Origin: the human T2T-CHM13v2.0 reference genome, Homo sapiens
Direction: 5' to 3' (one strand)
Length of the DNA: 64,000 nt
Assembly: GCF_009914755.1 (NCBI RefSeq)
Contig: NC_060935.1
The notes beneath the pieces were generated by a model that saw only the letters and a program-made list of their open reading frames with translations, was not told the DNA's origin and did no database searches. Shown piece after piece: positions 3,919 to 6,126 of this stretch. Made by a program: the position numbers and the translations under genes. Numbering within the stretch: the stretch's first letter is position 1; the number at the start of each line of letters is the position of its first letter.

Positions 3919-4303
3919 CATGAGAATTTGTTCTTTTTTAGAGAAACAGAATTTTTCACAGGAGGCTGAGCTGCTCCATCTCCCAGAGCCCCTACTTGCC
4001 ATACCCCGGGTTACCAGAAACAGGAGCTCTGCCATTTGATGAAAAAAATACTTTTTTCAGATAAATGTTTTTGTCATATCATCACACAAAGCGGGTAAAG
4101 TTGTATATATATACATACAACTTTTTACAAATATGTGATCATATGTACAAAGGCTAGAAGGAAATATACAGAAAAATATGTATTAAAATACTGGTTTTTT
4201 TTTCATTGTTTTATAAGATACTCTACAAAACATTACAATGAGGTAGGACTATTTTAGTGCTAGAGAATCTCATTAAATGAATTTGTTCAAGAGCTTCTTT
4301 GTC

Positions 4304-4930
4304 AGCTGGGTGCAGTGGCTCACACCTGTAACCCCAACACTTTGGGAGGCCAAGGGGGGCAGATCGCTTGAGCCTAGGTGTTCAAGACCAGCCTGGGCAA
4401 CATAGGGAGACCCTGTCTCTACCAAAAAAAAAAAAAAATTAGGGTGGGCGCGGTGGCTCACACCTATAATCCCAGCACTTTGGGAGGCTGAGGCGAGTGG
4501 ATCACCTGATGTCAGGAGTGTAAGACCAGCCTGGGCAACATGGCAAAACCCCGTCTGTACTAAAAATACAAAATTTATCCAGGCATGGTGGTGGGTGCCT
4601 GTAATCCCAGCTACTTGGGAGGCTGAGGCATGAGGCAGAGGTTGCAGTGAGCCGAGATCATGCCATTGCACTACAGCCTGGGCGACAAGAGCGAAACTCT
4701 GTCTCAAAAAAAAAAAAAAAAAATTAGCCAGGTGGTGGCACACACAGCTGTGGCCCCAGCTACTCAGGAGGCTGAGGCGGGAGAATCACTTGAGCACGGG
4801 GAGTTGGGGGTAATCGTACCGTGAGTACAGTGAGCCGTTATCGTATGGCTGCATTCCAGGCTAGACAACACAGTGAGACCTTGTCTCAAAAGAAAATAAA
4901 TAAATAAATAAATAAATAAATAAATAAATA
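4304..4930 (+). mobile_element. AluJ-type element with a second Alu (AluS-type, ~4442-4722) nested in its middle A-rich linker
   Basis: Outer TSD AAGAGCTTCTTTGTC at 4289-4303 and 4931-4945; (AAAT)n tail. Confidence 0.9.
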
Positions 4931-5647
4931 AAGAGCTTCTTTGTCAATATCCTTTTGTGGGTATACATCATAGTCCCACAGTACTTCTTCAACCCAGGGA
5001 GATAAATGTGTATTAGTCTGAAGACCCAGGAGAGAATCTTCAAGACTTGGCACTGTCACTGATAATGATCTGCTTCCTTACATTATGACAAATGTATTCC
5101 CAGCTCCGGCTTGTTCTGCCTCATTAAGAGAATATTTGAAGACATTATTCATGATAGCAGCATCAGCATTTTGCAGAAGAAACCCTGGGGACAGATGTCT
5201 GCATGAAGCACCTTTATTCTGTGAATAAACTGGTATTTTTTAATGACCATTTCCTGCAACTGGCAAAAGTCTCCGTTCAGTTCTACTCCACAGGGTTGCA
5301 CTGCTAAGCTATAAGATCACCCCATAAAGACTGTGCTGAGCCTGGAGCTGACGTCAGCCACAGCCTTTCCTGATTGATCAGGGAGTGCATGAAGATAAAT
5401 GAACTTCAATTCCATGAGGGAGAAGGAACGAGCAATCAGTCTAAAGGTTCTGTTTGGTGTGAACCACCCAGTAGTTTCTGCTCATTTTCCCTTTGTCACA
5501 TAATGAATCAATGAAGTCTTTATCACAAAGGAATGCGTCAGCGTGAATGGTGGGTTCTGGCTGCTGCTGTAGTTTTTGAAGGGTTAGATGTTCTGAGGAA
5601 AGCATGGTTTCTAGAGGCAAGCAATTCTGAAGGTCTTCTGCAGTGGG

Positions 5648-5932
5648 TTTTTTTTTTTTTTTATTTTGAGACAAGGTCCGGCTCTGTCACCCAGGCTGGA
5701 GTGCAGTGGCTCGACTGTGGCTCACTGCAACCTCCAACTTCCAGGTTCAAGCAGTCCTCCCATCTCAGCCTCCCAAGTAGCTGAAACTACAGGCACGCAC
5801 CCAGCTAATTTTTTTTTGAGATGGGGTCTTGCTATGTTGTCCAGTCTGGTCTCAAACTCCTGAGCTCAAGTGATCCACCCCCTTCAGCCTCCTAAAGTGC
5901 TGAGATTACAGGCATAAGCCACCACACCCAAC
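5648..5932 (-). mobile_element. AluJ-type element interrupting the retrocopy
   Basis: Alu body with degenerate TSD TTCTGC(A/T)GTG on both sides. Confidence 0.85.
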
Positions 5933-6126
5933 CTTTCTGCTGTGTTTTTAAACACAATGTCTTTATTTCCTTCAGTGAATTCATCAAAATCTCGGGCAGT
6001 TTGCATCTGCTGGAGCAGTGCCGGGCGGTCGGCAGAGCCACAGTATAGAGCAGTTACAAGATTTCCTGCCTTGCCGAGTGAAATCTATGCCTTCCAATTT
6101 TTTTTAATTAATTAATTTTTAAAAAA

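What the first reader, a model, noticed from the sequence alone, without database searches (positions are those of the whole stretch)
4260..6088. Hidden full-length retrocopy of an uncharacterised methyltransferase gene that may be extinct in humans
Seen: once two TSD-flanked Alu insertions are removed, about 296 codons of intronless, decayed coding sequence join exactly across both TSDs (FKNTAE/DLQN and DKEAL/EQIHL). It runs from a mutated start (GGC ATA G) to TAG, followed by an AT-rich 3' UTR-like tract. The ORF track shows only one in-frame fragment (5441-5674). Established: the order GKAVADVSSRLSTV (decayed VDVGSRLG motif I), GVELN, VLHADIC, ADAAIMNNVF is the class I Rossmann SAM-methyltransferase (DOT1-like) pattern. 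Recollection: it matches the vertebrate family of mouse 2700097O09Rik / zebrafish zgc:109986, for which I know no intact human gene. Inference: a fossil of the mRNA of a lost primate methyltransferase, younger than the host ERV and older than the AluJ-type insertions; ACTAGTT at 3607-3613 and 6353-6359 is a tentative TSD.
Basis: partly seen in the sequence, partly recalled or inferred. Interest (0 to 1): 0.85.

Follow-up and report, generated by a model that had tools for sequence, protein, structure and literature searches.

The report
Dead retrocopy of a lost methyltransferase gene
This stretch is a decayed, intron-free copy of the messenger RNA of a methyltransferase gene that most vertebrates still have but humans have lost, and it keeps parts of that gene that survive nowhere else in the human genome.

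Summary
On the minus strand, window 6088-4260 reads end to end as the 301-codon CDS of the vertebrate 2700097O09Rik / zgc:109986 methyltransferase family, once one Alu (5636-5934) and a nested Alu pair (4289-4930) are removed. It matches a loris orthologue at 216 of 291 codon columns. It is dead: start ATG is now ATA, and the alignment needs 2 in-frame stops, 8 frameshifts and 3 codon deletions.

The T2T human genome has no intact copy. The intron-bearing parent survives on chr14, between BAZ1A and SRP54, as five broken exons (1, 3, 4, 5, 6) spread over 28 kb. The chr11 copy joins these exons seamlessly, so it is a processed pseudogene of a unitary pseudogene. Exon 2 and the last exon(s), about 109 codons, were found only in the retrocopy.

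Retrocopy and parent differ by 17.4% of nucleotides. The differences are spread evenly over codon positions and both branches are equally long, so the parent lost constraint at about the time of retroposition.

"DOT1-like" has only weak fold support. This is a new member of a known kind, of moderate interest.

The parts
6339..6349 (-). Candidate 5' target-site duplication, directly after the last host-repeat base (6350). The junction reads TTTT/AAAA.
   Evidence: Host homology to the chr3 paralogue ends at 6350. The match to 4046-4057 is weak and no better than chance. An L1-endonuclease-like site is recalled knowledge.
6098..6338 (-). Later insertions at the retrocopy's 5' edge: an Alu monomer (6232-6330), a palindromic MITE (6120-6213) and an A/T-rich tail. 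These are not part of the mRNA copy.
   Evidence: sequence. One search shows an inverted repeat with 44-nt arms, 84% complementary. One search shows Alu-like matches.
6089..6097 (-). Short 5'UTR remnant. Similarity to the sequence just upstream of the chr14 parent's coding start ends about here.
   Evidence: exon-1 alignment.
5935..6088 (-). CDS part 1, codons 1-52. Start ATG is now ATA (6088-6086). There are 1-nt deletions at codons 4 and 19, and a TAA at codon 12 (6056-6054).
5636..5934 (-). Old Alu inserted in codon ~52, plus one copy of its ~15-nt duplication. It has 3 CpG in 284 nt.
   Evidence: Calling it J-type rests on recalled diagnostic positions only.
4931..5635 (-). CDS part 2, codons 53-292. 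It includes the decayed SAM-binding motif I (two conserved glycines now serine), 5 frameshifts and a TGA at 5319-5317. Parent exon junctions fall near 5566, 5441, 5320, 5211 and 5106.
4289..4930 (+). Two Alus plus one copy of the exact 16-nt duplication (4289-4304 = 4931-4946). The outer, old Alu is about 4305-4440 and 4713-4930. A second Alu is nested in its middle at about 4441-4712.
   Evidence: (families D2, D4, D16).
4260..4288 (-). CDS part 3, codons 293-301. There is a 1-nt deletion at codon 298. The original stop TAG is at 4262-4260.
4058..4259 (-). AT-rich 3'UTR-like tract of about 200 nt, with an internal A9 run at 4192-4200. Its extent is set by where host-repeat homology resumes.
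   Evidence: The parent's last exon is missing, so the UTR could not be checked against it.
4046..4057 (-). A6 run plus candidate 3' target-site duplication. Host-repeat homology resumes at 4048.
   Evidence: This is weak, low-complexity sequence.
6350..7098 (-). Host interspersed repeat, upstream flank. It is itself interrupted by an Alu at 6674-6965.
   Evidence: 72-81% identical to a collinear copy on chr3.
3403..4048 (-). Host interspersed repeat, downstream flank, interrupted by a young Alu (~3625-3925, 19 CpG). It runs into the ACY3 promoter and exon 1 region.
   Evidence: and the hub annotation for ACY3.

Best explanation
Window ~6097-4058 (minus strand) is a processed pseudogene. A spliced mRNA of the single-copy vertebrate methyltransferase gene known as 2700097O09Rik (mouse) or zgc:109986 (fish) was reverse-transcribed and inserted into a T-rich run of an older interspersed repeat, about 0.6 kb upstream of what is now the ACY3 promoter. 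It has decayed neutrally since. It lost its start codon, gained stops and about eight frameshifting deletions, and was hit by three Alus inside the CDS and by an Alu monomer and a MITE at its 5' edge. It has no coding function.

Its parent, on chr14 between BAZ1A and SRP54, also died in the human lineage. It is now a unitary pseudogene of which only exons 1, 3, 4, 5 and 6 are recognisable. The chr11 copy is therefore an 'orphan' retropseudogene and the most complete record of the gene in the human genome.

Inferred: the parent lost selective constraint at about the same time as, or before, the retroposition, early on the haplorhine lineage.
For: Homology:
- 73 hits with E<=0.01 among 133 candidates, best E 7e-32.
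- 796 family members with E<=1e-10 among 1544 candidates.
- collinear over residues 1-301 plus the stop; 216, 215 and 212 of 291 codon columns identical to three orthologues.

Processed origin:
- The chr14 exons lie 3.5, 1.5 and 9 kb apart, with exon 1 a further 13 kb upstream of exon 3.
- GT follows all five exons. AG precedes exons 3, 5 and 6; at exon 4 no AG was seen at the expected place.
- In the window the same segments abut directly (5569-5441, 5436-5319, 5322-5210, 5213-5112).

Parent is dead:
- No ATG, a -1 frameshift in exon 3, a +1 in exon 5, -6 and -5 nt deletions and TAA TAA in exon 6.
- Exon 2 and the last exon(s) were not found in 160 kb, nor genome-wide in the last-exon and 3'-UTR DNA searches.
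- There are no other copies in the genome (6 matches, 4 on chr11 and 2 on chr14).

Synteny:
- BAZ1A WAC exon at chr14 29.061 Mb (-), parent remnant at 29.154-29.181 Mb (-), SRP54 N-domain and M-domain exons at 29.198 and 29.222 Mb (+).

Timing:
- Retrocopy against parent: 442 of 535 nt identical, K2P 0.20.
- Differences by codon position: 26/176, 32/175, 31/173.
- Amino-acid changes: 21 retro-only, 20 parent-only.
- Tree end branches: 0.27 and 0.28, both inside the primate clade.
- Among the best 120 relatives of the loris protein there are 4 strepsirrhines and 0 haplorhines.

Insertion site:
- Host-repeat homology to a chr3 paralogue stops at 6350 and resumes at 4048.
Against: - No statistically supported target-site duplication or clear poly-A tail could be shown. 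The 3' boundary rests on a paralogous copy of the host repeat, not an orthologous empty site.
- Timing has little power. 20 against 21 changes still allows the parent to have stayed constrained for up to roughly half of the time since retroposition.
- The two shared motif-I Gly-to-Ser changes, which might show the parent was already crippled, are both CpG transitions. About 1.3 parallel changes of that type are expected by chance.
- The grouping of the two human copies has weak support (SH-aLRT 59).
- Absence from haplorhines rests on a truncated list of protein clusters, not on genome searches.
- Some of the 12 'shared derived' and 10 'both changed differently' codons (around codons 159-163) are register artefacts caused by indels.
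Confidence: 0.92

Rival explanations
1. It is an ordinary retropseudogene whose parent is an intact, translated human gene.
For: None found. Most human processed pseudogenes are of this kind (general knowledge).
Against:: a six-frame search of the whole T2T assembly with the loris protein gave only the chr11 copy and two chr14 exon remnants. Searches show the chr14 locus lacks a start codon and two exon blocks, and carries frameshifts and stops.
Confidence: 0.02
2. The retrocopy was made while the parent was fully functional, and the parent stayed under selection for a long time afterwards, dying much later (for example only in apes or humans).
For: The shared Gly-to-Ser changes can be explained by parallel CpG decay. 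The statistical power of the symmetry test is low.
Against: - End branches are equal, 0.27 and 0.28, against 0.01-0.09 for functional lineages.
- Amino-acid changes are 21 against 20, and nucleotide differences are even across codon positions.
- Large parts of the parent are already unrecognisable.
- There is no haplorhine protein among the top 120 hits.
Confidence: 0.15
3. The copy arose by DNA-level duplication of an intronless gene or gene fragment, not through an mRNA.
For: No convincing poly-A tail or target-site duplication was found.
Against: - The only other copy has introns at five junctions that are joined seamlessly here.
- The copy starts about 9 nt before the start codon and ends after a UTR-like tract.
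- It sits in a TTTT/AAAA site inside another repeat.
- It is on a different chromosome from the parent.
Confidence: 0.02
4. The decayed copy has been co-opted, for example as regulatory DNA or a non-coding transcript upstream of ACY3.
For: It lies about 0.6 kb upstream of ACY3 exon 1, in the same orientation. The RefSeq enhancer marks at 3492-3570 and 3642-3701 (hub table) are nearby.
Against: Those marks lie outside the retrocopy. The sequence decays at a neutral-looking rate: 17.4% different from the parent, even across codon positions. It is riddled with Alus. No expression or conservation data were available here.
Confidence: 0.05

Closest known systems
Processed pseudogenes (L1-mediated retrocopies of mRNAs)
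   Same: It is intronless and collinear with the full CDS. It lies on another chromosome than the parent, sits at a TTTT/AAAA site, was dead on arrival or soon after, and was later hit by Alus.
   Different: The parent gene is itself dead in the same genome. Pipelines that seed on human proteins or coding mRNAs would therefore not find it. The hub's RefSeq table has no row for it.
Unitary pseudogenes (Zhang et al. 2010, PMC2864566; GENCODE biotype, PMC3491395)
   Same: The chr14 parent fits the definition. It is a syntenic, intron-bearing, disabled locus whose orthologue is coding in mouse and other vertebrates, and there is no human paralogue.
   Different: The window feature is the retrocopy, not the unitary pseudogene. 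The locus is not among the 47 entries of that paper's Table 1 (section 7 read). Its Table S2, with 29 loci from unannotated RIKEN-type transcripts, could not be opened, so prior listing cannot be excluded.
'Orphan' retrogenes (Ciomborowska et al. 2013, PMC3548309; passages read)
   Same: It is a retrocopy that outlives its lost or pseudogenised parent.
   Different: Those retrogenes are intact and took over the parent's function. This one is thoroughly disabled, so the function is lost altogether.
2700097O09Rik / zgc:109986 family of class I SAM-dependent methyltransferases
   Same: The source gene belongs here: 66-76% identity over a 110-codon piece and 216 of 291 codon columns identical to the loris protein over the whole CDS. 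In orthologues the domain just passes the Pfam Methyltransf_11 cut-off (25.2 against 21.2 bits).
   Different: The human copies are not functional members. Motif I glycines 151 and 155, invariant in 30 of 30 aligned vertebrates, are serine in both human copies.
DOT1L catalytic domain
   Same: The AlphaFold model of the loris orthologue (mean pLDDT 69.5) has DOT1L chains at the top of the Foldseek list, E about 1e-8, TM 0.41-0.49 over ~310 columns. The layout is an N-terminal helical part followed by a Rossmann fold.
   Different: - Sequence identity is 12-15%, and rmsd is about 10 Å because the N-terminal half is poorly predicted.
- Unrelated methyltransferases (SgvM, cyclopropane fatty acid synthase, METTL5) score about as well.
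- Pfam DOT1 is reached by only 1 of 4 orthologues, and below its cut-off (19.2 against 23 bits).
- The best PDB sequence hit is METTL5, at E 0.02.

Membership tests
Processed pseudogene | Lacks the parent's introns, with exon junctions joined exactly | tested here: met
   Four consecutive parent exons, 1.5-9 kb apart on chr14, abut in the window at ~5441, ~5320 and ~5211. Exon 1 also matches. GT follows all five parent exons. AG precedes exons 3, 5 and 6.
Processed pseudogene | Collinear with the mature mRNA, located away from the parent | tested here: met
   (codons 1-301 plus stop). (retrocopy on chr11, parent on chr14).
Processed pseudogene | 3' poly-A tail | tested here: inconclusive
   There is only an A6 run at 4052-4057, where host homology resumes, and an internal A9 run at 4192-4200. 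Decay over tens of millions of years would be expected to erode a tail.
Processed pseudogene | Target-site duplications | tested here: inconclusive
Both copies lie in host-repeat sequence, and close versions of both are present in the chr3 paralogue.
- My 22-nt candidate (17 of 22 matching) is reached by 443-715 of 3000 shuffles.
- The 11-12 nt candidate at the host boundaries is low-complexity.
Processed pseudogene | Disabling mutations | tested here: met
   ATG is now ATA, with 2 in-frame stops, 8 frameshifts (all deletions) and 3 deleted codons. Three Alu insertions lie in the CDS.
Unitary pseudogene (the chr14 parent) | Disabled in situ at the syntenic position, with no functional paralogue in the genome | tested here: met
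   It lies between BAZ1A and SRP54. Synteny in other species is indicated only by two source annotations that attach the protein to BAZ1A (P0056 and P0074).
Unitary pseudogene (the chr14 parent) | Orthologue coding in a reference species | tested here: met
   301-aa open proteins from monotremes to strepsirrhines, birds, reptiles and fish. Mean column identity is 74% across 30 species. Function was not assayed.
2700097O09Rik / zgc:109986 methyltransferase family | Significant full-length sequence similarity | tested here: met
   (E 7e-32).
2700097O09Rik / zgc:109986 methyltransferase family | Open reading frame and intact SAM-binding motif I | tested here: not met
   The frame is broken, and Gly151 and Gly155 are replaced by Ser.
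DOT1 histone methyltransferase family | Pfam DOT1 (PF08123) above its gathering score | tested here: not met
   0 of 4 orthologues pass. Only the bird protein reaches a score, 19.2 against 23 bits.
DOT1 histone methyltransferase family | Fold of the catalytic domain | tested here: inconclusive
   DOT1L chains rank first (TM 0.41-0.49), but other class I methyltransferases score about the same. The model's N-terminal half has low confidence.
Orphan retrogene (functional replacement of a lost parent) | Intact ORF under purifying selection | tested here: not met

The most novel reading that the evidence does not exclude
A methyltransferase conserved across vertebrates, with a DOT1L-like fold, was lost at the base of the haplorhine primates. 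The chr11 retrocopy was made from its mRNA as the gene was dying or already crippled: both human copies carry Ser at the two invariant motif-I glycines. The retrocopy is now the only human record of about 109 codons of the gene. The parent's stump, whose first exon still sits in a CpG island head-to-head with SRP54, lives on as the lncRNA SRP54-AS1, whose variants have been reported as eQTLs and stroke-risk markers in lupus.
Probability: 0.3. Interest if true: 0.5.

Novelty: new member of a known kind. Interest (0 to 1): 0.35.

Why it matters
It documents the loss from the human lineage of a single-copy, uncharacterised methyltransferase that is strongly conserved from fish to lemurs. It also supplies a second, independent fossil of that gene. 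This fossil preserves exons that have vanished from the parent locus, and it can be used to date and polarise the inactivating mutations.

It is a concrete example of a retrocopy that searches seeded on human proteins would miss. It also suggests that the lncRNA next to SRP54 may be the transcribed remnant of a protein-coding gene.

For anyone studying mouse 2700097O09Rik, it is a warning that there is no human counterpart.

Tried and rejected
- Pfam on six raw retrocopy fragments gave no methyltransferase hit. A PDB sequence search with one fragment gave only noise.
- The search of our earlier findings was not open.
- A whole-genome search with a BAZ1A-fusion protein failed on the server. It was replaced by Pfam-family searches.
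- Genome-wide DNA searches with the last-exon and 3'UTR parts of the retrocopy found only the retrocopy itself.
- Sensitive tblastn and blastn over 160 kb of chr14 found no exon 2 or last exon. The best hits were Alu translations.
- TSD candidates. The former is host-repeat sequence.
- The idea that shared Gly151Ser and Gly155Ser prove the parent was already dead at retroposition was weakened. Both are CpG transitions, and about 1.3 such parallel changes are expected by chance.
- Naming the host repeat as an ERV, and naming the Alu subfamilies, could not be done without a repeat library. A first flank search was swamped by an Alu.
- Literature. Full-text searches for '2700097O09Rik' (8 papers, all expression or QTL lists by title and abstract), 'zgc 109986' (0 papers) and 'SRP54-AS1' (7 papers) turned up nothing on this gene loss or retrocopy. 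Two broader searches on unitary and processed pseudogenes listed nothing on it by title.
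Full report
**1. What is in the sequence**

Read on the minus strand, window 6088-4260 contains a series of protein-like fragments in three frames. 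Two blocks of Alu sequence interrupt them.
- The block at 4305-4930 is flanked by an exact 16-nt duplication, at 4289-4304 and 4931-4946 (family D16). It consists of one CpG-poor Alu with a second Alu nested in its middle (families D2 and D4).
- The block at 5636-5934 is a single CpG-poor Alu (3 CpG in 284 nt). It has a degenerate 15-nt duplication, and both copies read ..TAE in frame.
- With these blocks taken out, 888 nt remain, which is 296 codons.

**2. Identity**

A 110-codon piece, read through one TGA as X, was searched against 5.8 billion proteins.
- 73 hits had E<=0.01 among 133 candidates. The best was E 7e-32, and identities were 66-76%.
- The hits were 301-residue mammalian and bird proteins. 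Their sources call them 'RIKEN cDNA 2700097O09 gene' or 'Methyltransferase type 11 domain-containing protein'.

With the loris protein as query, the family has 796 members at E<=1e-10 among 1544 candidates. It reaches reptiles, birds and a fish protein labelled zgc:109986.

A frameshift-aware protein-to-DNA alignment that I wrote runs from residue 1 to residue 301 and the stop. Identical codon columns number 216, 215 and 212 of 291 against loris, bear and mole.

Lesions in the retrocopy:
- ATG is now ATA at 6088-6086.
- TAA at codon 12 (6056-6054) and TGA at 5319-5317.
- Eight frameshifts, all deletions, at codons 4, 19, 111, 120, 208, 232, 246 and 298.
- Three deleted codons.
- The original TAG stop is at 4262-4260.

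The raw fragments give no Pfam methyltransferase hit (0 of 6).

**3. The parent**

A six-frame search of the window's own assembly with the loris protein gave six matches. The assembly is T2T human, 3.1 Gb. Four matches were on the chr11 copy and two were on chr14.

I fetched 160 kb of chr14 and ran tblastn and blastn locally. Five exons are present on the minus strand:

| Exon | chr14 position (T2T) | Residues | State |
|---|---|---|---|
| 1 | 29,181,258-29,181,157 | 1-34 | no ATG |
| 3 | 29,168,034-29,167,904 | 74-120 | -1 frameshift |
| 4 | 29,164,407-29,164,286 | 120-159 | open, but motif I altered |
| 5 | 29,162,766-29,162,655 | 160-197 | +1 insertion |
| 6 | 29,153,670-29,153,577 | 198-232 | -6 nt, -5 nt, TAA TAA |

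- GT follows each of the five exons. AG precedes exons 3, 5 and 6. At exon 4 I saw no AG at the expected place.
- In the window the same segments abut without any intervening sequence, which shows origin from a spliced mRNA.
- Exon 2 (residues 34-73) and everything after residue 232 were not found anywhere on chr14 between 29.06 and 29.22 Mb. The best hits there are Alu translations.
- The last-exon and 3'-UTR stretches were also searched genome-wide by DNA, without result.
- About 109 codons were therefore found only in the retrocopy.

**4. Synteny**

Pfam-family searches of the genome place the neighbours as follows:
- the BAZ1A WAC-domain exon at chr14 29,061,222-29,061,476 (-);
- SRP54 N-domain and M-domain exons at 29,198,345 (+) and 29,221,702 (+).

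Its exon 1 sits in a CpG island at about 29,181,000-29,182,100, with GC 57-66% and CpG observed/expected 0.65-1.0.

From memory, the lncRNA SRP54-AS1 is annotated head-to-head with SRP54. One paper, of which I read passages (PMC6029634), reports SRP54-AS1 SNPs as eQTLs and stroke-risk markers in lupus. It gives no coordinates. That SRP54-AS1 is the transcribed stump of this gene is therefore an inference, not a result.

**5. Timing**

Across the five shared exons:
- The retrocopy and parent are identical at 442 of 535 aligned nucleotides: 60 transitions, 33 transversions, K2P 0.20.
- Outside recognisable CpG-derived sites, 81 of 509 differ.
- Differences are even over codon positions: 26/176, 32/175, 31/173.
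- Against the majority residue of 45 orthologues of 301 aa, 169 comparable codons sort as follows:

| Category | Codons |
|---|---|
| Unchanged in both | 106 |
| Changed only in the retrocopy | 21 |
| Changed only in the parent | 20 |
| Changed differently in each | 10 |
| Changed alike in both | 12 |

- Several of the 'alike' cases are simply the primate state. Those around codons 159-163 are register artefacts.

A maximum-likelihood tree of 24 orthologues plus the two human reads puts both human copies in the primate clade with the four strepsirrhines (SH-aLRT 82). Their end branches are 0.27 and 0.28, against 0.01-0.09 for living genes. Support for the two human copies as sisters is weak (59).

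Together this says the parent has been evolving without constraint for about as long as the retrocopy. Death of the gene and retroposition were therefore roughly contemporaneous.

Both human copies carry Ser at Gly151 and Gly155, the motif-I glycines that are invariant in 30 of 30 aligned vertebrates. That would suggest the gene was already crippled when it was copied. However, both changes are CpG-to-CpA transitions. With an estimated 16 ancestral CpGs and 57% loss per lineage, about 1.3 such parallel changes are expected by chance. I leave this point open.

Two other shared changes, at residues 100 and 215, appear from the present-day codons not to be CpG-type changes. The strepsirrhines do not share them. 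This hints that the copy postdates the strepsirrhine split.

With recalled neutral rates, about 0.09-0.10 substitutions per site per lineage corresponds to roughly 45-75 million years. In line with this, none of the best 120 relatives of the loris protein is from a haplorhine, while four are from strepsirrhines. The list is truncated and clustered at 90%, so this is suggestive only.

**6. Insertion site and boundaries**

The upstream flank (6361-6665) has a few 73-78% matches elsewhere in the genome. A chr3 copy is collinear with window 7098-6350 and again with 4048-3403. The retrocopy therefore sits inside an older interspersed repeat, and the inserted block is 6349-4049.
- I could not name the repeat, so 'ERV' is untested.
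- The junction reads TTTT/AAAA, which fits the L1 endonuclease preference (recalled).
- The chr3 copy has an unrelated Alu at the same T-run.

Both copies are part of the host repeat, and close versions of both occur in the chr3 copy, which has no retrocopy. My own candidates are also not significant, so TSD and poly-A tail remain unresolved.

Similarity to the parent begins about 9 nt before the start codon. Immediately upstream lie an Alu monomer and a palindromic MITE, which are later insertions.

**7. What the gene was**

- Orthologues just pass Pfam Methyltransf_11 (25.2 against 21.2 bits) and give sub-threshold CheR and Methyltransf_12 hits.
- The best PDB sequence match is METTL5, at E 0.02.
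- An AlphaFold model built from 30 orthologues has a confident Rossmann half and a poorly predicted helical N-terminal half (mean pLDDT 69.5).
- Foldseek ranks DOT1L chains first (E about 1e-8, TM 0.41-0.49). SgvM, cyclopropane fatty acid synthase and METTL5 follow closely.

It is a class I SAM-dependent methyltransferase of unknown substrate. 'DOT1-like' is a lead, not a membership.

**8. Prior knowledge**

- Full-text searches for the mouse symbol (8 papers), 'zgc 109986' (0 papers) and SRP54-AS1 (7 papers) found nothing on this loss or retrocopy.
- Two broader searches on unitary and processed pseudogenes led to the papers below and listed nothing on this locus by title.
- The locus is not in Table 1 of the unitary-pseudogene survey by Zhang et al. 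2010 (section 7 read). That paper's Table S2, which lists 29 loci found through RIKEN-type transcripts, could not be opened.
- The concept of retrocopies that outlive their parents is in print for functional cases (PMC3548309, passages read).
- The GENCODE pseudogene paper (PMC3491395, passages read) defines the biotypes used here.

**Verdict**

It is a neat but not surprising member of a known class.

Noticed in passing
window 6120-6213: A palindromic ~94-bp MITE with 44-nt arms, 84% complementary. From memory it resembles the mariner-derived MADE1. It is inserted in the A-rich tail of an Alu monomer.
   Followed up: partly
window 6232-6338 and 6089-6099: An Alu monomer sits right at the retrocopy's 5' edge. 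An ~11-nt stretch beginning ATTGG occurs on both sides of it (8 of 11 matching, read by eye). This looks like the monomer's own target duplication and duplicates the retrocopy's short 5'UTR.
   Followed up: no
L019 (chr3 110,961,990-110,962,300) versus window 6350/4048: A paralogous copy of the host repeat carries an unrelated Alu in the same T-run where the window carries the retrocopy. This suggests a recurrent L1-endonuclease hot spot within this repeat family.
   Followed up: partly
L013 (chr14 29,181,000-29,182,100): A CpG island covers exon 1 of the dead parent gene and about 0.9 kb upstream, facing SRP54. Exon 1 of the parent has kept many CpGs that the retrocopy has lost, and identity in exon 1 is only 73%.
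   Followed up: partly
proteins P0074 and P0056: A Tupaia 'BAZ1A' model of 1836 aa contains a piece of this methyltransferase. A Sigmodon 301-aa member is labelled BAZ1A. These are probably annotation fusions or mislabels caused by the genes being neighbours.
   Followed up: no
window 6674-6965: An Alu in the host repeat is flanked by a ~13-nt duplication beginning CAGTGAACTG (about 6978-6991 and 6660-6672).
   Followed up: no
outside the window (hub table: DOC2GP, about 32 kb before the window start): The neighbouring DOC2GP is listed as a human unitary pseudogene in Zhang et al. 2010 Table 1 and in the GENCODE pseudogene paper. This chr11 neighbourhood therefore holds relics of two unrelated gene losses.
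   Followed up: no
window 3625-3925: A much younger Alu (19 CpG in 286 nt) lies in the host repeat between the retrocopy and the ACY3 promoter. The RefSeq enhancer mark at 3642-3701 falls inside its 3' end.
   Followed up: no
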